Positions 4,910 through 37,943 of a stretch of 64,000 bases of DNA are shown one piece after another. The stretch covers positions 81,118-145,117 of the forward strand of contig JACKFN010000003.1 of NCBI GenBank assembly GCA_020632445.1, given 5' to 3'. The position numbers and the translations under genes are program-made. Every line of letters starts with the position of its first letter. Position 1 is the first letter of the stretch. A model generated the notes under the pieces. The model worked only from the letters and a program-made list of their open reading frames with translations, had not been told where the DNA came from and made no database searches. This DNA is from Candidatus Nomurabacteria bacterium. Its GTDB lineage: Bacteria > Patescibacteriota > Patescibacteriia > Magasanikbacterales > UBA922.

Positions 4910-7198
4910 CTAGAAGCTCAATCTCTCCCAACCCTTTGCAGTCTTTTCATGCTTATAGTCTTTTCCTGTAAACACGTGTCCGCCAGTCTTATCAAAGACA
5001 ACAATACCACCGAACAATTTCTTTTTCTTGTTGTCTGCAATATAGGCTTGAAGAGCGTCGGATTTAGCCTTTGTTTCGCCACTAGAGGCGGTAAAACCAG
5101 ACTTTGTATCAAAGATGCCTATTGATCCATCTTTCATCTGTACGACGTAATCTGGATAAAATGCATGCTCCAGTTCATCGTCTGGATGGACGTAGGCAAC
5201 GGCAAAGTACATTTCTTTACTCTCACCATTTTTGTACCACCAAGACACCTTGTCACTTTCTGATAGAACCTTTTCAAATTCTTGTTCTGGATTTGATCTT
5301 GTCTTGGATAGATAGCACGGACTCATTACGTTATTTGCCACACTGACCTTTTCATAATTTTCGTTGTAGTAATCAACATTTGGGACATCCCATGTGCACT
5401 CTCGTCTTCGCTGTTTTGCTTTGAGCTCTTTTTTGCGTACCTCTCGGAAGCGTTCTTTTGCAGCCTCAATGATCTCCAAGAAAATCTTTTGATTAACATC
5501 TGAGCACACAACAACACGCTGAATTTCTGCACGACTTTTGTCCGCATAGCCGAGGTAGCTATCAAACCAATCGTAAAATGCTTGTTGTACTTTGGTATGA
5601 GAACGAACAGGGGCAAATGGCAGTGATGCTACTTTCGCAAACAGCTCAAACTTGTATTTCAAATCATCCATCGGTACAGAGAAGTCTACCAATTCACCCA
5701 CGACATCTCGAGCACCATCGACATTATCAATAACCGCATTTGAGATCACAGGCTTGGTAAGCTCCTCGAGGTATAACTCAAGGTCTTTGTCTGCTTTTTT
5801 GTAGGCTGTGTCACCGATATCTTTTGACGTAATGCCAAATCGCTTGTTAGCTTCTTCGATAAAGAGCTTACGGAAGGTAAGAGTAAGATCACCATAATCA
5901 ACACGGCTGAGGTAGACGGACGGTAGTTTAATTGGCTCGTAATTAGCCTCTCTATGAGATGGAGAAACATTGAAAAATGTCTGACTTCCTTCGTCCTGCT
6001 TGATCTTGATCTCTCCAAGATTTGTATAGACGTATGCACTGTTCAGTACATCTGACTCGTAGTGCTTTACTTCTGGCATACGGAGTATTCGACCGACTGT
6101 TTGAATTTCAAACGTCACGCTTTTGATATCTCGGAACATCACAAGAATTTGAGCACGAGGACAATCCCAACCAAGAGCAATTGCTTGCTTGAAGATGAGC
6201 ACTTCTACATGATTATCTACTCGCTCAATACCTTGCAGGTTTTCTTTTGTGTCTGAAAGCCAAATGGCAAGTCGTCCATTGTCTACGGTAATGTCATGTT
6301 TCTTCTTCAAATACTCCTGCACCATTTCGAGCTTTGACTTATCAAGAGCACTGGTCTTTTGTGCTTCACTCGGTAGCTGGATCAGTACAAGCGGATTTAC
6401 ATCGCTCTTTTCTTTTTTATAGGCTTCTTTCAGTTCGTCACGTTGTTTGATACTGGCATCTAGGATAGCCTCATCAGCCGAGTCACAAAGGTCTTTGTAC
6501 TCTCCAATCTCTTTATTGATAATTGTCTCAGACTTAATCATTCCTTCTGCTACTACGTCACCAAATGGAACAACGATAAACCCAGCATCACCAGTCGCCA
6601 TATCTTCTGCTGTAGGCAAGATAGATGGTGTAGCAGATACCTCAATGGTGAGCTTTGGAGCAATAACATCTTTCACCAATTCTTGTGACTGGTCTGACCA
6701 GTAGTGGTGGTGGCTCTCGTCTACAATGAGGATAATTTCTCGTCCCTTTTCTTTTGTATTTCGTACAAATGTAGGCAAGTTTCTATCTTGCTCGTTATCT
6801 CGCATGAGCACGTTTGACCATGCACCTTCACGGTTTTTCTTGGTGAGGCTATGCCAATTTACAAACACAATTTCGTTCTCTTCAAATGTAGAGCGTTGTA
6901 CTTCTTCAAGATACGAAAATGTATATCGACTTTCAGAAAGATAGCTCTCGAGCTTTTCTTTACTTTGTGAATGCAAATCATGTGAGCTAATCCAAATGAA
7001 GGCGAATTCTTTGCTTCCTACATATTCTCGAGAGAATTGCTGGAGAAAGTCTGCCATCATAATGGTCTTTCCTGATCCAGTCGGGGCTTTGAATACACAA
7101 ATCTTTTCTCCCTGTTTATCAAGGAGTTTTTTGGCTTGAAAGAGTAGCTTATCTACTGCTGTTTTTTGATATGTTTTTAATCTCATCATATTAGGCAA
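4910..7198 (-). CDS. res: Type III restriction enzyme Res subunit (SF2 helicase plus C-terminal PD-(D/E)xK-like nuclease)
   Basis: Walker A APTGSGKT, DEAH-like VDESHH, C-terminal PDYVVQMKDG; 8-bp overlap with the upstream mod gene. Confidence 0.75.
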   Translation of the reverse strand: MPNMMRLKTYQKTAVDKLLFQAKKLLDKQGEKICVFKAPTGSGKTIMMADFLQQFSREYVGSKEFAFIWISSHDLHSQSKEKLESYLSESRYTFSYLEEVQRSTFEENEIVFVNWHSLTKKNREGAWSNVLMRDNEQDRNLPTFVRNTKEKGREIILIVDESHHHYWSDQSQELVKDVIAPKLTIEVSATPSILPTAEDMATGDAGFIVVPFGDVVAEGMIKSETIINKEIGEYKDLCDSADEAILDASIKQRDELKEAYKKEKSDVNPLVLIQLPSEAQKTSALDKSKLEMVQEYLKKKHDITVDNGRLAIWLSDTKENLQGIERVDNHVEVLIFKQAIALGWDCPRAQILVMFRDIKSVTFEIQTVGRILRMPEVKHYESDVLNSAYVYTNLGEIKIKQDEGSQTFFNVSPSHREANYEPIKLPSVYLSRVDYGDLTLTFRKLFIEEANKRFGITSKDIGDTAYKKADKDLELYLEELTKPVISNAVIDNVDGARDVVGELVDFSVPMDDLKYKFELFAKVASLPFAPVRSHTKVQQAFYDWFDSYLGYADKSRAEIQRVVVCSDVNQKIFLEIIEAAKERFREVRKKELKAKQRRRECTWDVPNVDYYNENYEKVSVANNVMSPCYLSKTRSNPEQEFEKVLSESDKVSWWYKNGESKEMYFAVAYVHPDDELEHAFYPDYVVQMKDGSIGIFDTKSGFTASSGETKAKSDALQAYIADNKKKKLFGGIVVFDKTGGHVFTGKDYKHEKTAKGWERLSF

Positions 7199-8987
7199 AG
7201 AGTTTACGATAGACTTCTAAAATACTCTCTGGGATAGGACAAAGTGTATGATCTACCGAGAGATCAGCAAAGTCATCCTCGAACGTGTCGTGAGAGAGTG
7301 AAAAAATGTACAAGTGTGCAGGCATGTCTTTTGCATCCACCTTTTCTTTGAATTCCTTTACCGAATCAAGATCGAACAATATACCCGTAAGGTGATCATT
7401 GTTTTTATAGACTTTGTACTTTTTGTTGTCGTAGATTTTCTTGTACGTCCCTTCCTTTACACAGATCATCTCTGTAGACTTCTTCACGAGTTCTCTACGG
7501 GTATCGTCTGATACTTCCGATTGCTTTACGAATGTTGTTTTGAAATAACGTAGATTTGCAGGAATACCTTCTACATCTGCATAGCCTTCAATGACGTTTT
7601 CTACACGAGGGTATGTTACTTCCTCAGCAATACCGTTTTCGTTATTGGTACAAAGTATAAACTGACGATTGCCTCCATCTTGCTTGTTTAGTTCTAGAAC
7701 AGCGTGAGCAGTCGTTCCAGAACCTGCAAAAAAGTCTAGTATAGTAACTTTTTTATTTTTCTGTGCTTTCGAAACTTTCAACGTATCAATCACGGCGTAT
7801 AAAGACTTTGGATAATCAAAAACTTTCTCTCCACCAAACAAATTTTTTAGCATGTTCGTTCCATGAGAGGAAGCATCGTACAAAGAATCGACCCATATTG
7901 TTTTTGGTTTCCTTCCTGATTTTGTCCTATCTTTCAAATAGACTGAATATGATCCTTTTACTTTTTTCACTACAAATTCTCCCTCCGCAGCATTTCTTAA
8001 AATCTTCTCTCTATCTGACCATCTCCAGACCCTTCTTTTACCATTTGAGTCAATAGGCATGATCATGTTTATGTTCGGGTAAGACTTCCTAAAATCTTCA
8101 ATGGAACATTCTTCGATTGAGCCTTTTTTACCATACACAAACACTGTGTCCGTTTTGTATTGATCTTTGTAGCTTCCTATCCTCGATCCACCAACCCCTA
8201 CAATCTTTTTGTGCTTCGGTTCAAAAGCAATAAAAAATTCTGAATTAGGACGATCTTTTGGAACAGATAGTCCGCCACTTCGTCTAAATGGGAGTAGCCT
8301 ATAGTTCGAAGTTTCATCTTCAAGTCCAAAATTCTTTTTCTGTTCATCTGTAAGAGGTAAATCAAAAACCTTTGATTTACTACTTCTTCCGTACATCAGA
8401 ATATACTCATGAGATGTGGCAAAATTTTTGTTTGTAGTTCTACCACGTGGGTTAATTTCAATTGCCACTATACCCATTCTATTTTCTTCACCAAAAATTT
8501 CATCTAGCAATAGCCCAATTTGAAAAATTTCATAATCATCAATGGTAAGAAAAAGGACACCGTCTTCTTTAAGAAGATTTTTTGATGCCTCAATTCTTTT
8601 TGCCATCATGGATAGCCACTTCGAATGCCTATACGGATCATCACTGTCTACATAGTCGTTGTTGTATCTCCAAGAATTGTTACCAGTATTATACGGAGGA
8701 TCAATATAAATAACATCTACCTTTCCAGCGTGCGTGTAATTCAAAACAGACAACGCATGATAGTTGTCTCCCTCAATCAATAGATTGGTGACTCCATTTT
8801 CATCCTTTTCAAGGGTACGTTCAGCTACTTCTTCGAGTACAGGTAGATGTTCTTTGCATTTTTCTACTACATCCTCGGGCTTATCTTCCCAGACCAGCCC
8901 ATATTTTTTTCTGCTTTGTAATTGTTCAACGAGCTCGAGAAGCTCTTCTTTGTTCATGTTTTTGTAATTCTTCATAGTAATGTTCAT
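7191..8987 (-). CDS. mod: Type III R-M Mod subunit (beta-class N6-adenine DNA methyltransferase)
   Basis: DPPY motif IV (IYIDPPYNTGN) precedes the AdoMet motif I FFAGSGTTAHAV; mod then res order is typical of Type III systems. Confidence 0.8.
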   Translation of the reverse strand: MNITMKNYKNMNKEELLELVEQLQSRKKYGLVWEDKPEDVVEKCKEHLPVLEEVAERTLEKDENGVTNLLIEGDNYHALSVLNYTHAGKVDVIYIDPPYNTGNNSWRYNNDYVDSDDPYRHSKWLSMMAKRIEASKNLLKEDGVLFLTIDDYEIFQIGLLLDEIFGEENRMGIVAIEINPRGRTTNKNFATSHEYILMYGRSSKSKVFDLPLTDEQKKNFGLEDETSNYRLLPFRRSGGLSVPKDRPNSEFFIAFEPKHKKIVGVGGSRIGSYKDQYKTDTVFVYGKKGSIEECSIEDFRKSYPNINMIMPIDSNGKRRVWRWSDREKILRNAAEGEFVVKKVKGSYSVYLKDRTKSGRKPKTIWVDSLYDASSHGTNMLKNLFGGEKVFDYPKSLYAVIDTLKVSKAQKNKKVTILDFFAGSGTTAHAVLELNKQDGGNRQFILCTNNENGIAEEVTYPRVENVIEGYADVEGIPANLRYFKTTFVKQSEVSDDTRRELVKKSTEMICVKEGTYKKIYDNKKYKVYKNNDHLTGILFDLDSVKEFKEKVDAKDMPAHLYIFSLSHDTFEDDFADLSVDHTLCPIPESILEVYRKLFA

Positions 8988-8995
8988 TGTTTCGG

Positions 8996-9181
8996 TTACG
9001 ACTGATCTTCAATGAAAGCAAGAATGTCTTCTTTCTTGTATCTTCGATCTCCTCGAGAGCCAAACCGTATGGCTTTGAGTTTTCCCTCGTTATCCCACTT
9101 TCGTAGTGTATTGGGATGACAGTTCAATATCTCACATGCCTCCTTTAGCGTGAGCAATTGAGGCATTTTTTGCATGTCCAT
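8996..9181 (-). CDS. Excisionase/AlpA-type helix-turn-helix DNA-binding protein
   Basis: 61 aa; LTLKEACEILNCHPNTLRKWDNEGKL matches the excisionase-family HTH pattern. Confidence 0.55.
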   Translation of the reverse strand: MDMQKMPQLLTLKEACEILNCHPNTLRKWDNEGKLKAIRFGSRGDRRYKKEDILAFIEDQS

Positions 9182-9262
9182 AGCTCTTGATTTTGTACTT
9201 AATATAAGTTACCATTAGTATACACGAAATTACTATTACTCTCAAATTAGCATGACAATTAT

Positions 9263-10411
9263 ATGGACAGAATGCCAAACTTTTTGCGGAAGCTGTCGCC
9301 AGCAATGCTGAACGCCTACTGCAAACATAAAAATATAGACTTTACTGTCTCTCCCAAAGAGAAGGATACGGAAAAGATCAAACAGAGCTTCATAGAATGT
9401 TGGGAAAAGCTGGAATATACGGAACGCAATGAGGTTGAAATAGACTTTGGTGCGACCGAGGAGCTCATGTCTAACACAGGATGTGGGCTGCTCCATGATC
9501 TTGCCGTACAAAAGAAAAAAACAATCCCAAAAGAATGGGATAACATGACTACGGCTGACAAGGCTTTGTGGTTTTACCTAAACGATCCTGAAACATTTCG
9601 AGAAGGAGCACTAAGATATGTAGTAGAAAACGCACAAGGTTGGATGACATTCCGAGCTGATGCAGAGTTACCTACAGCAGATTTGGATGCCCGTGTTGGA
9701 AAACTGCAACAACAAATGCAGAAGTATCTCTATGCAAAAGAGAGACGAGGGGCACTTTGTAAAATAGACATGATACAGAAAGACAACTATGTCTGTTTTG
9801 TTGCAAATCCTCAGAATTACCCAAAACGAGAGCCCGAATATGATGAGAAAACAAAGGAGCTCAACAAGGCAACCAGCATAAAACCAATCTATCAACTTTA
9901 CTTCCTATATCGATCGGACGACCAAACATTGAGCATTAAATCTCGATATAGAAAAAACAAGAAGCAAGATTTGGCAAATATGTTTGGTAATCATGTGCTC
10001 AACGTACCCCTTCTGGGAGATAAAATCATCTCGTACAATCTTGATCTGTTGTTAGACCCAGAATTCGAAATGAAAAAGCCACTTGGTCTCGAAAAAGTAG
10101 TACTCAAAAGAGTGCGTCTCAAATCTCGCAGGAACTTCAAACATTCTATCCAGTTAGACCTTGGTACATTAGACGATGGTATAGAACCTCTACGAGAACA
10201 ATTACGTTTGTATAACATAAACCCAACATTCTTTGAGGTGGCTACAGCTACCATGACGTTTTACTTCCAACGACCGAAAGACCCCCGATACAAAAATCAG
10301 AGGTTCGACGTAACTGTTGAGCTGTCAAAACCTCACAGATGTACCTTCAAAAATCGTGATCTGGATGATAAAGCAAGAACAGTATTACATGATTGGGGTA
10401 TTGTGAATTGA
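9263..10411 (+). CDS. Hypothetical protein of unknown function (382 aa), first gene of a two-gene cassette
   Basis: Long ORF with no recognisable motifs; a 2-bp gap to the next gene suggests translational coupling. Confidence 0.5.
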   Translation: MDRMPNFLRKLSPAMLNAYCKHKNIDFTVSPKEKDTEKIKQSFIECWEKLEYTERNEVEIDFGATEELMSNTGCGLLHDLAVQKKKTIPKEWDNMTTADKALWFYLNDPETFREGALRYVVENAQGWMTFRADAELPTADLDARVGKLQQQMQKYLYAKERRGALCKIDMIQKDNYVCFVANPQNYPKREPEYDEKTKELNKATSIKPIYQLYFLYRSDDQTLSIKSRYRKNKKQDLANMFGNHVLNVPLLGDKIISYNLDLLLDPEFEMKKPLGLEKVVLKRVRLKSRRNFKHSIQLDLGTLDDGIEPLREQLRLYNINPTFFEVATATMTFYFQRPKDPRYKNQRFDVTVELSKPHRCTFKNRDLDDKARTVLHDWGIVN

Positions 10412-10412
10412 T

Positions 10413-11351
10413 ATGGTTTTTTCATCCGCAATATCTCTCTTGCACCACAATGAACGTATCCCTCGAGAAGAAATTGAAAAGTATATAAGCAAGGGCATAA
10501 TTGCACATTTGCGAAAGCAGGGTGTATTAAAAGAGAGCGACACACTGTCACACATAACTTGCCAAGAGTGCAACGAATGTCTGTGTGAGGTGGAATCTTT
10601 TGATGGTGGCGTTCGAGCATATTGTGAAACATATAACAGTTTTTACGATCTACCAGAGTCATATTCGCAACCCTCATACAAATTCGACACAAACGGCTTC
10701 CTATCTCTTCTCAAAGAACAATTCGATATCAAAGGTTCGACTGAAAAAATAAGCACCAATTTTTTTAACATCGGTTATCTCAGTACAGATCATACACACA
10801 TATTTTTTTCCTTTGATGATGACCAAAACAACCACTCGCAAGATATAGACCGAATCCTTGGATCAAACGGGAAAGCACTTATTGTTGTACCATTTTCTGC
10901 TTCGCAGTATACGTATACGGGAAACCGTGTTCGACCAGTAAGCTTGGACAGTGTTGGAAAATTTACTTCTCGTGCAATATCTTGGGATAAGGAAGAGTTT
11001 GAGTACATTGTAGAAAGTACCTTTCGTAGTGTTGAGTTTACTCTGCATGGAGAGCTCAAACACAACGGGGTAATTTTACGAGACTATGCCTCGGGGACGA
11101 ACCAATATGCTTTCCTCAAGACATTGTTTGATAGCTTCGGTAGAACGGTTACAAATGAAACGCTTTTTGATAATGCAAAAAAGACAGTACCAAACTTTAG
11201 ATATACCAGTCCGTCATCTTTCGCAGAGAAAACAAAGTCTAACATCTGCAATAAAGACAAGGAAACCAAAGATATTGTGGAAAAGATCATTGTTCCTGCG
11301 AGTGCAGCGGGATCAAAAAAAGGCTACAGAATGACAAATCCTCAAGCATAA
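10413..11351 (+). CDS. Hypothetical protein (312 aa) with an N-terminal Cys cluster (CQECNECLC...C), second gene of the cassette
   Basis: ORF; only a putative zinc-ribbon-like Cys cluster is recognisable. Confidence 0.5.
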   Translation: MVFSSAISLLHHNERIPREEIEKYISKGIIAHLRKQGVLKESDTLSHITCQECNECLCEVESFDGGVRAYCETYNSFYDLPESYSQPSYKFDTNGFLSLLKEQFDIKGSTEKISTNFFNIGYLSTDHTHIFFSFDDDQNNHSQDIDRILGSNGKALIVVPFSASQYTYTGNRVRPVSLDSVGKFTSRAISWDKEEFEYIVESTFRSVEFTLHGELKHNGVILRDYASGTNQYAFLKTLFDSFGRTVTNETLFDNAKKTVPNFRYTSPSSFAEKTKSNICNKDKETKDIVEKIIVPASAAGSKKGYRMTNPQA

Positions 11352-11352
11352 T

Positions 11353-11392
11353 GTCAGCAATCCGTCAGCGATTGTCAGCAAAATGTCCGCAA
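11353..11392 (+). promoter_or_regulatory. Iteron-like array: four direct repeats GTC(A/C)GC(A/G)A starting at 11353, 11364, 11374 and 11385 (10-11 bp phasing)
   Basis: Read directly in the sequence; begins 2 bp after the stop of the upstream gene. Confidence 0.55.
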
Positions 11393-11411
11393 CAACCTAC
11401 CTTAGAATAGA

Positions 11412-11435
11412 ATCACGGTAACCCGTGATTTTTCG
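11412..11435 (+). terminator. Hairpin ATCACGG-TAAC-CCGTGAT followed by TTTTCG; terminator-like or operator inverted repeat
   Basis: Perfect 7-bp inverted repeat plus T-run; the motif aaCCGTGAT recurs at 11455-11463. Confidence 0.4.
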
Positions 11436-11488
11436 TTGCAACGTCAAACAAAGGAAACCGTGATGTTTATCAATTAACATTACGACTT

Positions 11489-11764
11489 ATGACTAAAGAA
11501 CATTCCTACGTTCCCTTTCTTGAGGACTACCCAAATCCATTTTCAAGCTACGACATTGGCATGTGTGCGGGCTTGGTAAGCGTTGGCTACCAGCTTCTAC
11601 ACATAGACAAGTCAAAGGGAGCAAAAGCACTTTTCCTCTTTGAAAACAGCGATGAGATTGTTGAATCCGCTCAACAATACTGGCGAGGAGAATTGCAGGT
11701 CGATGCACTTGCGTACTTCAACGCACTCAAGAATATCAAGAACCAGTTGTACTCACAGCGATAG
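11489..11764 (+). CDS. Hypothetical small protein (91 aa)
   Basis: ORF only; lies within the element between the iteron array and the primase. Confidence 0.3.
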   Translation: MTKEHSYVPFLEDYPNPFSSYDIGMCAGLVSVGYQLLHIDKSKGAKALFLFENSDEIVESAQQYWRGELQVDALAYFNALKNIKNQLYSQR

Positions 11765-12248: not shown

Positions 12249-14438
12249 ATGGAATTTCAGACAATTACCATTAGCCAATATCTCAAAGAAAAAGGGATGG
12301 AATTTGTGGAGCGAAATGGTGAGATAGTAACACGATGCGTATTCAATGACTGCGACGCTGATAGCAGAGCAAACGAGGCTCACCTATATTTTGATGCAGA
12401 GACAGGACAGTACGATTGCAAAAAATGTGGTGAACAAGGAAACATAATTACACTCGCAAGACATCTTGGTGACACACTTGAAGATGTAGCAAAAGAAAAA
12501 ACACAGCCCAGTAAAAAACGGAAGAAAAACGGTATAACCATTACGGACGTTGAAAGATGTCACAAAGCTCTTCCAGATCGAATACGAGAGTACCTGCACG
12601 ATCGAGGAATTACAGACGAGCTTATCTCGCACTTCAAACTAGGCTGGGGTGAATTTTATGGTTCACAATGGATCACCATACCTATCAAAGATATTGATGG
12701 GAATTTTTCGTTCTTCAAATTACGGCGTGACCCTGACCAAGAAACCGAAGACGGAAAATATCGGTTCTACCCTGCTGGAAGTAAAGCAACGCTCTTTGGC
12801 TGGGATATGCTCAAAGGTAACACGGACATGATCGTGATCTGTGAGGGAGAATTCGATGCAATACTTCTCACCAGCCTTGGTATCCCCACACTAACATCTA
12901 CCGCAGGGGCAGGAACATTCAAAGACGAGTGGATACCGCATTTGAAAAACTTGAAAAACATTCACATTTGCTTTGACAAAGATGACGCTGGAGCGAAAGG
13001 AGTAGAAAAGCTGGTAGCACAGCTCGATACGCATTTGAGTAAGACCGCAATACACCAGATAACATTGCCAGATCGAATGACTGACGGAAAGGACGTTACT
13101 GATTACATAACCAAGCACAACGGAAACCCAGATGAACTACTGAAAGAATGCTCAAAACAAGTTGCAGGAAGACAGCCCATTGATACGTCTAAATTCAAAC
13201 CACTCACCTCAGATGATGTTGTTCGAGTGCTCGGGCTGACAATCAAGAAAGATGAAGAGAACAAGCTCATCACGTTTCTTTGTGCATTGTCTGCATATAC
13301 TGAGCAATCCCAATTCAATCTGAGCTTCAATGCTCCGTCTTCCACGGGAAAAAGTTTTATCCCTATGGAAGTATCGACACTCTTTCCTACAGAAGACGTA
13401 ATGAAGCTCGGTGACTGCTCACCAAAGGCGTTTTTTCACGAACAAGGAGAATACGACAAAGAGAGCAACACGATGCTTGTTGATCTATCGAGAAAGATAC
13501 TTATATTCCTTGATCAGCCACACAATAGCTTGCTCGAACGTCTTCGTTCACTCTTATCTCACGATCAGAAAGAGATGATCTCAAAGATTACAGACAAGAA
13601 CAGAAAAGGTGGAAACCAGACAAAGACAGTTATCCTTCGTGGGTATCCTGCTGTTATCTTTTGTAGTGCTGGATTGAAGATAGACGAACAAGAAAGTACT
13701 CGGTTTATTCTTCTCTCCCCACAAACGAGCCAAGAGAAACTGCGGTTTTCAATCCAAGAAAAGATCAAGAAGGAGTCTGACTACGAAACGTATCGAGATG
13801 ATCTCAATGCTAATCCAGAACGAGCACTACTCAAAGAGCGAATTGAGGCAATCAAAGATGAGGCGATTGATGAAATACGCATTGAAAACCCAGAATTGAT
13901 AGAACAAGAATTTTTCTCTAAACGTGCAAAGCTGAAGCCTCGTCACCAACGTGACATTGGTCGGCTGATGGGGCTTACAAAGATATTTGCTCTCCTGAAT
14001 GTCTGGTTTCGAGAACGTGAAGGCTCAACAATCGTGGCAACAAAAGAAGACTTTGAAGAAGCACTCAAGCTCTGGAACAAGATATCCGAAAGCCAAGAAT
14101 ACAATCTTCCTCCATACGTGTATGAGCTATACAAGGATGTTATTGTCCCAGCATACGATGAAAAAAATGCGTTTGGGCTTGCTGCTGATCCTTCAGGAAT
14201 TACAAGAAAAGAGATACTGCAAAAGCACTATGAGGTATATGGACGTATGGTACAGGACTGGCAAATGAGACAGCAGATCATACCGATGCTAGAAACGGCA
14301 GGTCTCATATCACAAGACCCTGATCCTGATGACAAACGGCGTATTCTTATTACCCCTACAGACAAACTCACTACTTCCACAGACTCTGAAAAAGATATAG
14401 TGAGCGACACTGGGGACGTAGGTACAATTTCCCTGTAA
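12249..14438 (+). CDS. Phage/plasmid-type DNA primase: CHC2 zinc finger plus TOPRIM plus C-terminal P-loop domain
   Basis: CVFNDCDADSR...CKKCG zinc finger; TOPRIM MIVICEGEFDAILL; Walker-A-like APSSTGKSF. Confidence 0.75.
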   Translation: MEFQTITISQYLKEKGMEFVERNGEIVTRCVFNDCDADSRANEAHLYFDAETGQYDCKKCGEQGNIITLARHLGDTLEDVAKEKTQPSKKRKKNGITITDVERCHKALPDRIREYLHDRGITDELISHFKLGWGEFYGSQWITIPIKDIDGNFSFFKLRRDPDQETEDGKYRFYPAGSKATLFGWDMLKGNTDMIVICEGEFDAILLTSLGIPTLTSTAGAGTFKDEWIPHLKNLKNIHICFDKDDAGAKGVEKLVAQLDTHLSKTAIHQITLPDRMTDGKDVTDYITKHNGNPDELLKECSKQVAGRQPIDTSKFKPLTSDDVVRVLGLTIKKDEENKLITFLCALSAYTEQSQFNLSFNAPSSTGKSFIPMEVSTLFPTEDVMKLGDCSPKAFFHEQGEYDKESNTMLVDLSRKILIFLDQPHNSLLERLRSLLSHDQKEMISKITDKNRKGGNQTKTVILRGYPAVIFCSAGLKIDEQESTRFILLSPQTSQEKLRFSIQEKIKKESDYETYRDDLNANPERALLKERIEAIKDEAIDEIRIENPELIEQEFFSKRAKLKPRHQRDIGRLMGLTKIFALLNVWFREREGSTIVATKEDFEEALKLWNKISESQEYNLPPYVYELYKDVIVPAYDEKNAFGLAADPSGITRKEILQKHYEVYGRMVQDWQMRQQIIPMLETAGLISQDPDPDDKRRILITPTDKLTTSTDSEKDIVSDTGDVGTISL

Positions 14439-14541: not shown

Positions 14542-15171
14542 ATGGGAAGATACTACTGGAACAAAAAAGACGAAGCAGATGACTGCAAAAAAATAGAAAT
14601 ATGGACACTCAAGAAATGGGGCTATCTTGATACGTCCTTTCGTTCGGGAACAATCACATGGACGCACGGATACAGCGGAAACAAAAGTAGTGTGGGTATA
14701 CAAAGTGTTATGTGGAAGGACGAGGGGCAGTATATCCGCATACACTATACCCAGACAGACTGGCGTACCGAGGAAAAGACAGACTTCGACTACCAAATAC
14801 CGCTCACCACAACAGAATGTCACTTCGGAGGTATACGCTACTGGTTTCGCTGTCCGTGGTACAAAAATGGTGTCTATTGTGGCAGACGTGTTGGTGTGAT
14901 CTACAAAAACGGAGATTACTTTGCCTGTAGACACTGTTACGAGCTGTCATACGCCAGCAGAAACGAGAACCGAAAACATGCGTTGTCTGGACTCGGCAGA
15001 ATGCTTGATCTGGAACGAAAAATAGAAAAGCTCCAAGAAGAAATAACCACTCCATTCTACAATGGACGACCAACAAGAAAATATCGAAGGCTTATAGAGC
15101 TAAAAAGGCAATACTATGGCTTTGATGCAGAAAAAGTCTTGAGAGATATGGATAGAATGCTTGGTTCGTGA
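14542..15171 (+). CDS. Hypothetical zinc-ribbon protein (209 aa)
   Basis: Cys cluster CHFGGIRYWFRCPWYKNGVYCGRRV...CRHC; located immediately upstream of the recombinase. Confidence 0.4.
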   Translation: MGRYYWNKKDEADDCKKIEIWTLKKWGYLDTSFRSGTITWTHGYSGNKSSVGIQSVMWKDEGQYIRIHYTQTDWRTEEKTDFDYQIPLTTTECHFGGIRYWFRCPWYKNGVYCGRRVGVIYKNGDYFACRHCYELSYASRNENRKHALSGLGRMLDLERKIEKLQEEITTPFYNGRPTRKYRRLIELKRQYYGFDAEKVLRDMDRMLGS

Positions 15172-15313: not shown

Positions 15314-16918
15314 ATGGATTACCATGACAATAAACAATACAAATACTTTCTCTATGCGAGAAAATCATCGGAAAGCGAAGACCGACAAGTCCAATCAATC
15401 GATGATCAAACTGATCGGCTAAAAGAGCTGGCACAAACGCTCGGTATTACCATAAAACAGATATTTACTGAGGCAAAATCAGCGAAGAAGCCAAACAATA
15501 GACCAGTCTTCACAGAAATGATGGAACGGATCGAAGCTGGAGAAGCTGATGGGATACTATGTTGGCAGATCAATCGTCTTTCACGCAATCCAATTGATAG
15601 TGCTCAGATACAGTGGCTACTACAGAAAAAAGTGCTCAAGTCTATCCAAACCATTGATCGTGAATACAGACCAGAAGACAATGTGCTTCTCTTCAATGTT
15701 GAAAGTGGAATGGCGAATCAGTTTATCCTTGATCTCAGCAAGAATGTAAAACGTGGAAACTTGTGCAAGGTAAAAAATGGGTGGAAACCCGGTCTTGCAC
15801 CTATTGGATATTTGAATGAACTGGAAAACCATACCATAATCCCTGACCCTGAACGATTTGATCTCATACGTAGAGCATGGGACTACATGCTGACAGGAAA
15901 CTATACCGTTCCCCAAATACACAAGATGCTCAATGACGACTGGGGCTTCCGAACAAAGAAAAGAAAACGATCTGGAGGTAAACCAGTAGCACTGAGCAGT
16001 ATGTACAAGATATTCAGCAATATCTTCTATGCTGGTGTACTTCTTTACGATGGCAAGGAGTATGCAGGAAAACACAAAACAATGATCACGCTTGAAGAGT
16101 ATGACCAAGTGCAGGTTATTCTCGGAAAAAAAGGAAAACCAAGACCAAAGACGTATACCTTTGCCTTTACTGGCATGATTAGATGTGGTGAGTGTGGCTG
16201 TAGTATCACTGCGGAAAAGAAGAAAAAGTTTATCAAGAGCGAGCAAGAACTTCGCTACTACACGTACTATCACTGCACTCGTAGAAAACGAGAAGTAAAT
16301 TGCTCGCAAAGAAAATCGATCAGTGAGACAACCTTAGAAAACCTGATATTAGAAGAAGTCGGCAAGCTGACCATTCTTCCAGAGTTTTTTGATTGGGCTA
16401 TGGAAGCACTGAACCAAGATAATGATAATGAGATTGTGGATCGAACCAAGATATACGAAATGCAACACCAGTCTCTGACGAAAACACAAAAAGAGCTCGA
16501 TAATCTCACCAAAATGAGATACAGAGAGCTGATTGACGATGAAATGTTTATCAAAGAGAGCGAGGAGCTCAAAGCAAAAATCAAAAAGCTACAGCAAGAA
16601 CTTCGGGAAACTGAGAAACGTGCAGAAGATTGGCTCGAGCTCACAGAAAAGGCATTTCACTTTGCCAGATACGCACGAGAACACTTTGATGGCGGTAGTA
16701 TTGAGGAAAAAAAGGAAGTACTGAGCGGATTAGGTTCGAACTTTTTGCTAAAAGACCAAAAACTAGATATTTCCCTTCACAGTTACTTTGAACCGATAAA
16801 AAACGGGTATAAAACGCTTGAAGCTGAGTATCTAGCGTTAGAACCAAACAAATTTGCCTCAACAAAAGTAAAAACAGAGGCTTTGACCTCTGTCATTACA
16901 CGTTGGCAGGCGAGGTAG
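15314..16918 (+). CDS. Large serine recombinase (resolvase catalytic domain, recombinase domain, zinc ribbon, coiled coil); putative integrase of the element
   Basis: YARKSSESEDRQVQSIDDQ catalytic region; CGECGCS...HCTRRKREVNC zinc ribbon; 3' end overlaps the tRNA-Trp 3' end. Confidence 0.8.
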   Translation: MDYHDNKQYKYFLYARKSSESEDRQVQSIDDQTDRLKELAQTLGITIKQIFTEAKSAKKPNNRPVFTEMMERIEAGEADGILCWQINRLSRNPIDSAQIQWLLQKKVLKSIQTIDREYRPEDNVLLFNVESGMANQFILDLSKNVKRGNLCKVKNGWKPGLAPIGYLNELENHTIIPDPERFDLIRRAWDYMLTGNYTVPQIHKMLNDDWGFRTKKRKRSGGKPVALSSMYKIFSNIFYAGVLLYDGKEYAGKHKTMITLEEYDQVQVILGKKGKPRPKTYTFAFTGMIRCGECGCSITAEKKKKFIKSEQELRYYTYYHCTRRKREVNCSQRKSISETTLENLILEEVGKLTILPEFFDWAMEALNQDNDNEIVDRTKIYEMQHQSLTKTQKELDNLTKMRYRELIDDEMFIKESEELKAKIKKLQQELRETEKRAEDWLELTEKAFHFARYAREHFDGGSIEEKKEVLSGLGSNFLLKDQKLDISLHSYFEPIKNGYKTLEAEYLALEPNKFASTKVKTEALTSVITRWQAR

Positions 16919-16977
16919 GAATCGAACCCACGCAATTGGTTTTGGAGACCAATGTACTACCACTATACGACTCGCCC
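16905..16977 (-). tRNA. tRNA-Trp (anticodon CCA), 73 nt with encoded CCA
   Basis: The reverse complement folds as a cloverleaf: acceptor stem GGGCGAG/CTCGCCT, anticodon loop CTCCAAA, T-loop GGTTCGATTCC. Confidence 0.75.
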
Positions 16978-34584: not shown

Positions 34585-34611
34585 GCCGACCTGTGGTAGG
34601 TACAGGTCGGC
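34585..34611 (-). terminator. GC-rich hairpin GCCGACCTGT-ggtaggt-ACAGGTCGGC immediately 3' of the island gene (T-run about 20 nt further on)
   Basis: Perfect 10-bp inverted repeat read directly; non-canonical spacing to the U-tract. Confidence 0.4.
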
Positions 34612-34648
34612 GCCGTTGGTGGGGTAGCTCGCCGTGACGAGTGGCGGA

Positions 34649-37669
<3,021 letters not shown>

Positions 37670-37943
37670 CCGATCTGAACACCATCAACACTTCAAACTT
37701 CATCCCCGACACTCAAAGTGGTGCGTGTAGGGTGATTTCGTATCTGACCTGATTGCCAGAGTAAACGAAACACGCTTGGGGTCCCAGCCCTGCAACCGCC
37801 CTTTTCGCTATGAGCGGAAGGAGCTGGGCAGGCACCAACTGACATTTGATCAGCTTATGCCTGCCTGCAGGGTGGAAAAGTTCAAAGAATTTTGAAATTT
37901 TTTGTAAAGATCCTGTATTGCACGTATTGTACAATAACAGGTA

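What the first reader, a model, noticed from the sequence alone, without database searches (positions are those of the whole stretch)
11353..11463. Helically phased iteron-like array plus inverted repeat just upstream of the primase module
Four direct repeats GTC(A/C)GC(A/G)A start at 11353, 11364, 11374 and 11385 (10-11 bp spacing, so on the same DNA face). They begin 2 bp after a stop codon. The hairpin ATCACGG-taac-CCGTGAT plus T-run follows at 11412-11435, and the half-site CCGTGAT recurs at 11455-11463. This is a good candidate for the element's replication origin or a repressor or primase-loader binding site; the primase gene begins about 800 bp downstream.
Basis: seen in the sequence. 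Interest (0 to 1): 0.55.

Follow-up and report, generated by a model that had tools for sequence, protein, structure and literature searches.

The report
Binding-site array for upstream winged-helix protein
Four evenly spaced 9-bp repeats just after a gene's stop codon are most likely the docking sites of that gene's own previously unannotated PhoB-like DNA-binding protein; with the terminator hairpin behind them they probably gate expression of the replication genes of a mobile element in an uncultivated CPR bacterium, rather than forming a primase-linked replication origin.

Summary
Four direct repeats (T/C)GTC(A/C)GC(A/G)A start at 11352/11363/11373/11384, spaced 11-10-11 bp. They are the only 4-unit phased array in the 64-kb window. 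The motif is not scattered elsewhere.

The hairpin AATCACGG-taac-CCGTGATT plus T-run (11411-11433) is a stable terminator-like stem-loop. The third CCGTGAT lies at 11458-11464, not 11455-11463, and is not a conserved half-site. It is the 5' arm of a second hairpin.

The array goes with the gene upstream of it, not with the primase:
- The 312-aa protein (10413-11351, no Pfam hit) is predicted to end in an OmpR/PhoB-type winged helix. That fold binds head-to-tail to direct repeats about 11 bp apart.
- In 8 of 11 related loci (17-50% protein identity), 3-4 phased repeats start 1-8 nt after the homologue's stop codon. The repeat sequence changes with the clade.
- One locus has near-identical DNA from 11395 onward (97.6%; identical in the leader and DUF5659 start) but a divergent winged-helix gene and different repeats.
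- Two relatives lack the primase.

My best reading is a cognate operator array that controls transcription into the DUF5659-primase operon. A SaPI-like origin is the main rival. This is a new variant of a known kind, of moderate interest.

The parts
9263..10411 (+). 382-aa partner gene, first gene of the swappable cassette. No Pfam hit and no Walker A motif. Tentative RdgC-like (DNA-encircling) fold.
   Evidence: No hit in Pfam, NCBIfam or PADLOC. Matches phrog_37634, function unknown, E 4.9e-14. AF2 model pLDDT 78. Foldseek top hits are E. coli RdgC 2owl/2owy (E 1.6e-4, prob 1.0, ~310 columns, TM only ~0.3), then CENP-N/L. It is fused to the 312-aa homologue in P0016 and P0029 (25-29% identity over the full length).
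10413..11351 (+). 312-aa gene. The C-terminal ~105 residues (about nt 11025-11348) are predicted to form an OmpR/PhoB-type winged-helix DNA-binding domain. This is the proposed binder of the array.
   Evidence: No Pfam hit even at E<=10 on the C-terminal domain. In the AF2 model, residues 200-312 have pLDDT about 85-96. The Foldseek PDB list is led almost entirely by OmpR/PhoB effector domains (PhoB, OmpR, VicR, ArlR, GlnR, ToxR, CadC, PhoP), with TM on target 0.6-0.7 and rmsd 3.3-3.8 A over about 105 columns. The family has 63 representatives at 50% clustering.
11352..11392 (+). Array of four direct repeats: TGTCAGCAA (11352), CGTCAGCGA (11363), TGTCAGCAA (11373), TGTCCGCAA (11384). Spacing is 11-10-11 bp. 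It starts 1 nt after the stop codon.
   Evidence: The position is conserved in homologous loci, with clade-specific repeat sequence.
11403..11408 (+). -10-like hexamer TAGAAT, 10 bp after the last repeat and 2 nt before the hairpin. No -35 partner.
   Evidence: It aligns with TATAAT in L004 and L005 and TATAGT in L003. The scan finds no sigma-70 -35/-10 pair in 11300-11520. Promoter function is inferred, not shown.
11411..11433 (+). Hairpin 1: AATCACGG-TAAC-CCGTGATT with a T-run. Terminator-like end of the upstream two-gene operon and boundary of the mosaic cassette.
   Evidence: RNA fold -12.3 kcal/mol, z -5.0. The stem is kept with loops of 4, 5 and 7 nt in L003-L005. Unrelated hairpins plus T-run occupy the same place in L047, L049, L056, L058 and L059. 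The simple terminator scan does not flag it; my reading is that the upstream A-tract pairs into the T-run.
11434..11443 (.). GC-rich palindrome CGTTGCAACG. Role unexplained.
   Evidence: L005 has CGTGGCCACG, where a symmetric double change keeps the palindrome. L047 has GTTGTGCGCACAAC and L049 has GCGCGCGC at the same place.
11459..11484 (+). Hairpin 2: CGTGATGTT-N8-AACATTACG. It contains the third 'CCGTGAT', ends 4 nt before the DUF5659 start codon, and has the SD-like AAGGAAA (11451-11457) just 5' of it.
   Evidence: The stem is predicted in the window, L004 and L005, with compensatory and G-U changes (GTAATATT/AATATTAC in L004, GTAGTGTT/AACATTAC in L005).
11489..11764 (+). DUF5659 gene, first gene of the conserved downstream module (followed by 54-aa and 78-aa ORFs and the primase).
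   Evidence: Pfam PF18903, E 3.8e-10. It lies downstream of the winged-helix gene in L004, L051, L056, L057, L058 and L059.
12249..14438 (+). DnaG/Toprim-type primase fused to a P-loop domain (Walker A at residue 362). Not the partner of the array.
   Evidence: Toprim_2 E 2.6e-11. PHROG DNA primase and primase/helicase. Walker A APSSTGKS. Absent from L004 and L049, and replaced by Prim-Pol in L057.

Best explanation
The four repeats are the cognate DNA-binding sites of the 312-aa protein encoded immediately upstream. Its C-terminal domain has the OmpR/PhoB winged-helix fold. Proteins with that fold sit head-to-tail on direct repeats about 11 bp apart, so four sites spaced 11-10-11 bp would hold two tandem dimers on one face of the helix.

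Gene and sites form one unit that evolves and recombines together. It is a specificity cassette, also containing the 382-aa partner, placed between an excisionase-type HTH gene and the DUF5659-primase module of an integrative element in a Candidatus Nomurabacteria genome.

The hairpin plus T-run 18 nt further on ends the cassette's own transcript.

Inferred mechanism: the bound protein controls how much transcription enters the DUF5659-primase operon. In the window's clade the geometry fits PhoB-type (class II) activation of a promoter that lacks a -35 box. The last repeat ends 10 bp before a TATAAT-like hexamer, and the start site would fall inside the 5' arm of the hairpin, so such transcripts would escape the terminator. 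A roadblock or readthrough-control version of the same idea is equally allowed in other clades.

Shown: the array, its uniqueness, its conservation, its co-variation with the upstream gene, and the predicted fold. Inferred: actual binding, the promoter, and the sign of regulation.
For: 1. The array is unique in the window and far beyond chance.
2. Fold. The AF2 C-terminal domain has pLDDT 85-96, and the Foldseek PDB list is led almost exclusively by OmpR/PhoB effector domains, with TM on target 0.6-0.7. This family binds 7-bp direct repeats with 4-bp spacers as tandem head-to-tail dimers. One or two PHO boxes (2 or 4 sites) overlap the -35 (PMC4832192, PMC11825685).
3. Position is conserved across very distant homologues. 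A chain of 3 or more phased repeats starts 1-8 nt after the stop codon in 8 of 11 loci, against 0.9% of background tiles (binomial P about 7e-15).
4. Repeat sequence changes by clade: GTCAGCAA (window, L004, L005, L006), AGCAACC (L003), GTCAGAA (L056), (C/G)AGAATT (L055), TCAGAATTT (L059), TCTTCAG (L057), TTAGGA (L051, L054). The predicted recognition helix changes in step.
5. L059 shares only the C-terminal winged helix (its N-terminus is TPR) and still has TCAGAATTT twice, 11 bp apart, starting 2 nt after its stop.
6. Natural swap. L003 is 97.6% identical to the window from 11395 to its end at window 12664 (identical across the hairpin, leader and DUF5659 start), but has a 25%-identical winged-helix gene and different repeats.
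7. L047, L048 and L049 keep the flanks (window 9008-9257 and from 11488 onward, 74-88% identical) but replace 9258-11487 with unrelated genes and have no GTCAGC repeats.
8. The window, L003, L004 and L005 have a TATAAT-like box 9-12 bp after the last repeat and no -35/-10 pair.
Against: - No binding, transcription-start or expression data exist. The organism is uncultivated.
- The winged-helix assignment rests on a model built from a 4-sequence alignment. Foldseek E-values are only 3e-3 to 0.1, and Pfam Trans_reg_C is not detected at sequence level.
- Co-variation of recognition helix and repeat is confounded by phylogeny, because close relatives share both.
- The -10-like box is not evident in several other clades (L051, L056, L057).
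- In L059 the terminator's T-run abuts the ATG, which fits readthrough control better than a separate promoter.
- L058 shows no clear array.
- The partner's tentative RdgC-like fold is not typical of a transcription factor's partner.
Confidence: 0.55

Rival explanations
1. SaPI-like replication origin. The repeats are iterons and the 312-aa protein, with the 382-aa partner, is the origin-recognition factor that recruits the element's primase/P-loop protein or host helicase.
For: In SaPIs the Rep protein's C-terminal winged-helix domain recognises short 5-6-nt iterons that lie immediately downstream of the rep ORF, and Rep and ori are matched pairs (PMC9371898, read). Here a C-terminal winged helix, short repeats abutting the stop codon, clade-specific repeat sequences and a nearby replication module are all present. 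A cassette swap of protein plus sites is also what replicon-specificity modules do.
Against: - Only 4 repeats, all in one orientation. There is no second opposed set and no AT-rich centre (AT 45-65% over 11351-11450).
- No DnaA-box-like site in the intergenic region.
- The 312-aa and 382-aa proteins have no Walker A motif.
- The specific fold, OmpR/PhoB with its N-terminal beta-sheet, is to my knowledge only known from transcription factors.
- The array persists in relatives without a primase (L004; also L050, L051 and L054 within the DNA fetched).
- A terminator sits between the array and the replication genes.
Confidence: 0.2
2. Centromere-like or clamp-loading site. The winged-helix protein nucleates on the array and loads or anchors the ring-like 382-aa partner, for segregation of the excised element or for spreading and silencing. 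Analogues are ParR-parC, TubR-tubC and ParB/KorB-type systems.
For: - Phased 10-12-bp direct repeats bound by a small DNA-binding protein are typical of parC and tubC centromeres (my own knowledge).
- The two genes are always adjacent and are fused in P0016 and P0029.
- The 382-aa model's best PDB matches are the toroidal DNA-binding protein RdgC, followed by the kinetochore proteins CENP-N/L.
Against: - Neither protein has an NTPase motif, and there is no ParA, ParM or TubZ-like hit.
- The RdgC match has TM only about 0.3 and rmsd 10-11 A.
- Known centromeres usually have more repeats.
Confidence: 0.1
3. Host pho-box. The repeats (TGTCA core, 11-bp period) are sites for a host PhoB/PhoP-type response regulator that ties the element's replication genes to host physiology.
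For: TGTCA-containing direct repeats at 11-bp spacing, placed 10 bp upstream of a -10-like box, resemble the E. coli pho box (my own knowledge). OmpR/PhoB regulators bind such tandem repeats (PMC4832192).
Against: The repeat sequence changes with the element's own winged-helix gene: the L003 swap, and TTAGGA, TCTTCAG and AGAATT in other clades. The motif is not enriched elsewhere in 64 kb of host DNA.
Confidence: 0.03
4. Chance or a non-functional slippage product in a 3' untranslated region.
For: The units are short (8-9 bp) and lie in a non-coding spacer.
Against: None of 300 shuffles reaches the observed chain. It is the only such array in the window. Arrays recur at the same place in homologous loci at 17-50% protein identity.
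Confidence: 0.01

Closest known systems
PHO boxes and other operator arrays of OmpR/PhoB-family winged-helix regulators (PhoB, PhoP, OmpR, GlnR; also SARP activators of Streptomyces)
   Same: Predicted domain fold. Direct repeats of about 7-9 bp with an 11-bp period, occupied head-to-tail. Four sites correspond to two boxes. In the window's clade the 3'-most site ends about 10 bp before a -10-like hexamer at a promoter with no -35 (PMC4832192, PMC11825685; the SARP and pho-box geometry is from my own knowledge).
   Different: No receiver domain and no sequence-level Trans_reg_C match. The domain is C-terminal to an unknown zinc-ribbon-like and alpha/beta region. The protein is encoded on a mobile element with an obligate partner gene. 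The sites abut the regulator's own stop codon and lie upstream of a terminator. Regulation itself is untested.
SaPI (staphylococcal pathogenicity island) Rep-ori modules
   Same: A C-terminal winged-helix domain recognising short iterons located immediately downstream of its own ORF. Specificity is matched between protein and repeats. The setting is an integrative element with a primase (PMC9371898).
   Different: SaPI Rep is a helicase, and its ori has 6-12 iterons in two opposed sets around an AT-rich centre. Here there are 4 same-direction repeats, no AT-rich region and no ATPase in the binder, and the array is kept in relatives without a primase.
Immunity or specificity cassettes of lambdoid phages, and Rep-iteron incompatibility modules of plasmids
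   Same: The DNA-binding protein and its sites are exchanged together between otherwise near-identical elements (L003 against the window; L047-L049 against the window). The comparison itself is from my own knowledge.
   Different: The proteins are unrelated. The sites lie 3' of the gene rather than in a divergent promoter.
Plasmid centromeres bound by ParR (parC) or TubR (tubC)
   Same: Helically phased short direct repeats bound cooperatively by a small DNA-binding protein that has an adjacent partner gene (my own knowledge).
   Different: No NTPase partner was found. Only four repeats. The fold is different.

Membership tests
OmpR/PhoB-type winged-helix regulator with direct-repeat operator | The binder carries the Trans_reg_C fold: a 4-stranded N-terminal sheet, three helices and a C-terminal beta-hairpin wing. 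| tested here: met
   The AF2 model has pLDDT 85-96 over residues 200-312. The Foldseek PDB list is led almost exclusively by OmpR/PhoB effector domains, with TM on target 0.6-0.7 and rmsd 3.3-3.8 A. This holds at the level of a predicted structure only.
OmpR/PhoB-type winged-helix regulator with direct-repeat operator | Sequence-level membership of Pfam Trans_reg_C (PF00486). | tested here: not met
   No Pfam hit for the full protein, for four C-terminal domains at E<=10, or for any of 52 family members. No PDB sequence hit.
OmpR/PhoB-type winged-helix regulator with direct-repeat operator | Sites are same-direction repeats with a period of about 10-11 bp. | tested here: met
   Spacing is 11-10-11 in the window, 11-9-11 in L003, 11-10-11 in L005, 10-9-12 in L054, 11-9 in L051 and L055, 9-11 in L057, and 9-9 in L056.
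OmpR/PhoB-type winged-helix regulator with direct-repeat operator | The protein physically binds the repeats. | not testable with these tools
   Supported only indirectly, by conserved adjacency and by clade-wise co-variation of repeats and recognition helix.
OmpR/PhoB-type winged-helix regulator with direct-repeat operator | The promoter-proximal site overlaps or replaces the -35, about 10 bp upstream of a -10 element (class II activation). | tested here: inconclusive
   TAGAAT, TATAAT or TATAGT lies 9-12 bp after the last repeat in the window, L003, L004 and L005, and TAAATA lies 11 bp after it in L054. There is no such box in L051, L056 or L057. No start-site data exist.
Two-component response regulator | N-terminal receiver domain with a phospho-acceptor Asp. 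| tested here: not met
   No Response_reg hit. The central domain (residues 90-200) has a different strand/helix order.
Iteron-type replication origin (plasmid Rep_3/RepA type or SaPI type) | Iterons adjacent to an AT-rich unwinding element. | tested here: not met
   AT content in 20-nt windows is 45-65% from 11351 to 11450. The only stretch of 75-80% is the loop of hairpin 2.
Iteron-type replication origin (plasmid Rep_3/RepA type or SaPI type) | Multiple iterons. The plasmid type has about 17-22-bp units. The SaPI type has 6-12 units in two opposed sets. | tested here: not met
   There are four 8-9-bp units in one orientation, with no further copy in the element.
Iteron-type replication origin (plasmid Rep_3/RepA type or SaPI type) | Iterons lie immediately 3' of the gene whose C-terminal winged helix reads them (the SaPI hallmark). 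| tested here: met
   The array starts 1 nt after the stop codon of the winged-helix gene. The same holds in homologues.
Iteron-type replication origin (plasmid Rep_3/RepA type or SaPI type) | The binder is an initiator with a helicase or ATPase, or a Rep fold. DnaA boxes are often present. | tested here: not met
   No Walker A motif in the 312-aa or 382-aa protein. No Rep family hit. No DnaA-box-like match in 11352-11488.
Iteron-type replication origin (plasmid Rep_3/RepA type or SaPI type) | The fragment supports replication. | not testable with these tools
   Needs an experiment.
Intrinsic (Rho-independent) terminator (hairpin 11411-11433) | A stable GC-containing stem-loop directly followed by a U-run, conserved as structure rather than as sequence. 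| tested here: met
   Folding energy -12.3 kcal/mol, z -5. Five T follow. Loops are 4, 5 and 7 nt in close relatives, and different hairpins plus a T-run occur in distant ones. The consensus scan does not flag it; my reading is that the A-tract pairs into the T-run.
Partition centromere (parC/tubC type) | An adjacent NTPase motor gene (ParA, ParM or TubZ). | tested here: not met
   No such family hit and no Walker A motif in the cassette proteins. The 382-aa model resembles RdgC instead.

The most novel reading that the evidence does not exclude
The cassette is a previously undescribed two-protein, site-specific DNA-loading system of CPR mobile elements. The winged-helix protein acts in cis: its DNA-binding domain is the last part translated, and its sites begin 1 nt after the stop codon, with a terminator holding the polymerase just beyond. 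It nucleates on the array and loads or anchors the RdgC-like ring protein, which is fused to it in some relatives. This creates an element-specific gate, either a roadblock or silencer, or an origin or centromere, in front of the replication genes. Cassette swapping would then define 'immunity' or incompatibility types among these elements.
Probability: 0.12. Interest if true: 0.75.

Novelty: new variant of a known kind. Interest (0 to 1): 0.5.

Why it matters
Almost nothing is known about how mobile elements of Candidate Phyla Radiation bacteria control their replication and excision. Their proteins mostly escape annotation.

This work pairs an unannotated protein family (63 representatives at 50% clustering, no Pfam or NCBIfam model) with a predicted fold, a predicted DNA recognition code (clade-specific repeats against the recognition helix) and a defined cis site. 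The hypothesis can therefore be tested directly with a gel shift.

The work also shows that the protein-plus-sites unit is exchanged as a cassette between otherwise near-identical elements. That is how immunity and incompatibility types arise in phages and plasmids.

If the origin or clamp-loading readings were right, this would be a new replicon or segregation type. If the regulator reading is right, it extends the OmpR/PhoB fold to receiver-less regulators carried on mobile elements.

Tried and rejected
- Annotation searches. Pfam, NCBIfam, PADLOC and PHROGs gave no informative hit for the 312-aa protein. Only an unknown-function PHROG matched the 382-aa protein.
- PDB sequence searches with profiles found nothing relevant.
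- Rfam at the gathering threshold and at E<=10 found no known RNA in the intergenic region.
- Viral contigs held no relatives of the 312-aa protein or of DUF5659. The single hairpin-pattern hit was unrelated.
It returned 39 loci, and by inspection every one is an unrelated terminator-like or coding match. In hindsight a protein query would have been better.
- Word-indexed protein searches found only 4-6 family members. The exhaustive profile search was needed.
- My by-eye idea that the alternative cassette proteins of L047, L048 and L049 also end in this winged helix is not supported by hhalign.
- The third CCGTGAT as a conserved half-site or anti-terminator partner is rejected. It is CCGTAAT in L004 and CCGTAGT in L005, while hairpin 1 is unchanged.
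- Autoregulation at the cassette's own divergent promoter is not supported. No repeat copy lies in 9182-9262.
- The literature search found no paper on DUF5659 or on these elements.
Full report
**1. Observation**

The window sequence shows the stop codon TAA of ORF 10413-11351 at 11349-11351. It is followed by GTCAGCAA (11353), GTCAGCGA (11364), GTCAGCAA (11374) and GTCCGCAA (11385). With one more 5' base, the unit is (T/C)GTC(A/C)GC(A/G)A, and the start-to-start spacing is 11, 10 and 11 bp.

- The degenerate 8-mer has 8 matches in 64 kb against 6.3 expected, and four of them form this cluster.
- The 9-mer with up to two mismatches is not enriched (246 against 236 expected). So this is not a generic scattered motif.
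- I scored every 50-nt tile of the window on both strands for chains of similar 7-mers 8-12 bp apart. Only this site has a 4-unit chain, and chains of 3 or more occur in 0.9% of tiles.
- None of 300 dinucleotide shuffles of the segment reaches the observed chain.

The hairpin is AATCACGG/TAAC/CCGTGATT (11411-11430), with five T at 11429-11433. As RNA it folds at -12.3 kcal/mol, z = -5.0.

**2. Context**

The protein P0001 is annotated as a hypothetical protein of a Candidatus Nomurabacteria bacterium. The array lies in a 137-bp spacer inside what looks like an integrative element. From left to right the element carries:

| Coordinates | Strand | Feature |
|---|---|---|
| 4910-8987 | - | Type III restriction-modification pair |
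| 8996-9181 | - | Excisionase-family HTH gene |
| 9263-10411 | + | 382-aa ORF |
| 10413-11351 | + | 312-aa ORF |
| 11352-11488 | . | The spacer with the array |
| 11489-11764 | + | DUF5659 gene, then two small ORFs |
| 12249-14438 | + | Toprim primase fused to a P-loop domain |
| 14542-15171 | + | 209-aa ORF |
| 15314-16918 | + | Large serine recombinase |
| 16904-16977 | - | tRNA-Trp, abutting the recombinase |

**3. The upstream protein**

The 312-aa protein has no hit in Pfam, NCBIfam, PADLOC, PHROGs or PDB sequences. By eye, its C-terminus (...GSKKGYRMTNPQA) looked like an OmpR/PhoB effector domain.

An AF2 model from a 4-sequence alignment is confident for residues 200-312, with pLDDT about 85-96. 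Foldseek against the PDB returns a list led almost exclusively by OmpR/PhoB-family DNA-binding domains. These include PhoB 1gxq/1gxp, OmpR 1opc, VicR, ArlR, GlnR, ToxR, CadC and PhoP-DNA 5ed4. TM on target is 0.6-0.7, and rmsd is 3.3-3.8 A over about 105 columns.

E-values are modest (3e-3 to 0.1), so this is a fold assignment from a prediction, not proof. The fold binds direct repeats of about 7 bp with 4-bp spacers as tandem head-to-tail dimers. One or two boxes (2 or 4 sites) overlap the -35 of activated promoters (PMC4832192; PMC11825685).

**4. Related loci**

Close homologues (48-50% identity: L004, L005, L006) keep four GTCAG-type repeats right after the stop codon. They also keep a TATAAT-like box, hairpin 1, a GC-rich palindrome, hairpin 2 and the DUF5659 start.

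An exhaustive profile search found 63 family representatives. I could read the DNA behind seven distant ones (17-24% identity), and most again have phased repeats starting 1-8 nt after the stop:

| Locus | Protein | Repeat |
|---|---|---|
| L050, L051, L052 | P0032 | TTAGGA |
| L054 | P0006 | TTAGGA |
| L055 | P0007 | (C/G)AGAATT |
| L056 | P0008 | GTCAGAA |
| L057 | P0016 (fused) | TCTTCAG |
| L059 | P0021 | TCAGAATTT, twice |
| L058 | P0012 | no clear array |

Eight of 11 loci reach a chain of 3 or more, against a 0.9% background (P about 7e-15). The predicted recognition helix differs between these clades and is shared within them.

L059 is telling. Only its C-terminal winged helix is homologous, its N-terminus being TPR repeats, yet the repeats are still there.

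**5. The array belongs to the upstream gene, not to the primase**

- **L003.** It matches the window at 97.6% from 11395 to its end at window 12664, which covers the hairpin, the leader, DUF5659, the small ORFs and the first ~415 nt of the primase gene. The hairpin, leader and DUF5659 start are identical in the alignment. Upstream of 11395 it has a 25%-identical winged-helix C-terminus and AGCAACC-type repeats spaced 11-9-11.
- **L047, L048 and L049.** They share the excisionase-side flank (window 9008-9257, 78-88%) and everything from 11488 onward (74-77%). They replace 9258-11487 with unrelated genes and have no GTCAGC repeats.
- **Primase distribution.** L004 keeps the array but has no primase. 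L049 also lacks it. L057 has a Prim-Pol instead. L050, L051 and L054 show integrases, and no primase within the DNA fetched, behind the cassette.

So the repeats are part of a swappable cassette with the 382-aa and 312-aa genes.

**6. The partner**

The 382-aa protein is always adjacent and is fused to the winged-helix protein in P0016 and P0029. Its AF2 model (pLDDT 78) best matches the toroidal DNA-binding protein RdgC (E 1.6e-4, prob 1.0, ~310 columns), followed by CENP-N/L. TM is only about 0.3, so this is tentative. Neither cassette protein has a Walker A motif.

**7. The inverted repeat and the rest of the spacer**

Hairpin 1 keeps its stem with loops of 4, 5 and 7 nt in L003, L004 and L005. 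In distant relatives it is replaced by unrelated hairpins plus a T-run. Variable loop length and structure-only conservation indicate a terminator rather than a dimeric protein site. The simple scan misses it; my reading is that the upstream A-tract pairs into the T-run.

The third CCGTGAT is not conserved (CCGTAAT in L004, CCGTAGT in L005). It is the 5' arm of hairpin 2 (11459-11484), whose stem shows compensatory and G-U changes.

A GC-rich palindrome (CGTTGCAACG, 11434-11443) keeps its symmetry in L005 (CGTGGCCACG). It is unexplained.

**8. Mechanism**

Shown:
- A unique, conserved array that co-varies with a gene encoding a predicted PhoB-like winged helix.
- A terminator-like hairpin 18 nt downstream.
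- No canonical -35/-10 pair in the spacer.

Inferred: the protein occupies the four sites as two tandem dimers and controls transcription into the DUF5659-primase operon.

In the window's clade the last repeat ends 9-12 bp before a TATAAT-like hexamer (TAGAAT 11403-11408) that sits 2-5 nt before the hairpin. This matches PhoB-type class II activation. It would place the start site inside the 5' arm of the hairpin, so activated transcripts would escape the terminator that stops the cassette's own transcript.

In other clades the -10-like box is not evident. In L059 the T-run abuts the ATG. Roadblock or readthrough control therefore remains an alternative form of the same idea.

**9. Rivals**

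- **SaPI-like origin (0.2).** SaPI Rep proteins read iterons that lie immediately downstream of rep with a C-terminal winged helix (PMC9371898), which is a close formal parallel. Against it: only four same-direction repeats, no AT-rich centre, no DnaA box, no ATPase in the binder, a fold typical of transcription factors, and persistence without a primase.
- **Centromere or clamp-loading site (0.1).** Suggested by the RdgC-like partner and the fusions.
- **Host pho boxes (0.03).** Argued against by co-variation with the element's own gene.
- **Chance (0.01).** Excluded.

**10. Verdict**

It is wrong about the partner (not the primase or the HTH protein) and about the hairpin (a terminator, not half-sites).

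This is a new variant of a known kind: an unannotated, receiver-less PhoB-fold family on CPR mobile elements, with cognate arrays that abut the stop codon and are exchanged as cassettes. Interest is 0.5.

Noticed in passing
window 34600-37700: GC content is 60-65% in a genome of about 41% GC. The minus-strand ORF 34649-37669 (1006 aa) carries four MopE-type metal-binding motifs and an FGE-sulfatase domain, and sits among polysaccharide-synthesis genes. This looks like a recent horizontal acquisition from a high-GC donor, or an assembly chimera.
   Followed up: partly
window 16904-16977 (-) and 15314-16918 (+): tRNA-Trp overlaps the 3' end of the large serine recombinase gene by 15 nt, converging on it. 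This is probably the attachment site and right edge of the element.
   Followed up: no
window 11434-11443; L005, L047 and L049 at the equivalent place: A GC-rich palindrome lies between the two hairpins. It is CGTTGCAACG here and CGTGGCCACG in L005, where a symmetric double change preserves the palindrome. L047 has GTTGTGCGCACAAC and L049 has GCGCGCGC. The function is unknown.
   Followed up: partly
window 11451-11488: The SD-like AAGGAAA lies about 30 nt before the DUF5659 ATG. It is separated from the ATG by hairpin 2 (9-bp stem, compensatory changes in L004 and L005), which would bring the two close together when folded. There is no SD directly at the ATG.
   Followed up: partly
window 9258-11487 against L047, L048 and L049: The whole segment (382-aa gene, 312-aa gene, array and leader) is a replaceable cassette. 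Three metagenomic relatives share both flanks at 74-88% identity but carry unrelated genes of 326, 526 and 572 aa in its place. L047's replacement is followed by its own repeat and inverted repeat (GAGGAGT three times; AGGACTCC-caaa-GGAGTCCT).
   Followed up: partly
P0016 (L057) and P0029: These are natural fusions of the 382-aa and 312-aa homologues into single proteins of 687-698 aa. The 382-aa protein's model resembles the ring-shaped DNA-binding protein RdgC and the kinetochore proteins CENP-N/L.
   Followed up: partly
L004 and L049 against window 12249-14438: The 729-aa primase/P-loop gene is absent from two otherwise collinear relatives, so it is an accessory part of this element family. 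L057 carries a Prim-Pol protein whose C-terminal part is weakly similar to residues 332-627 of the window's primase.
   Followed up: partly
window 4910-8987 (-): Type III restriction-modification genes are the element's cargo. Relatives carry other R-M systems at the same place: ResIII helicase plus RE_endonuc domains and an N6/N4 methylase in L050, and NgoFVII endonuclease plus a C5 methylase in L058.
   Followed up: no
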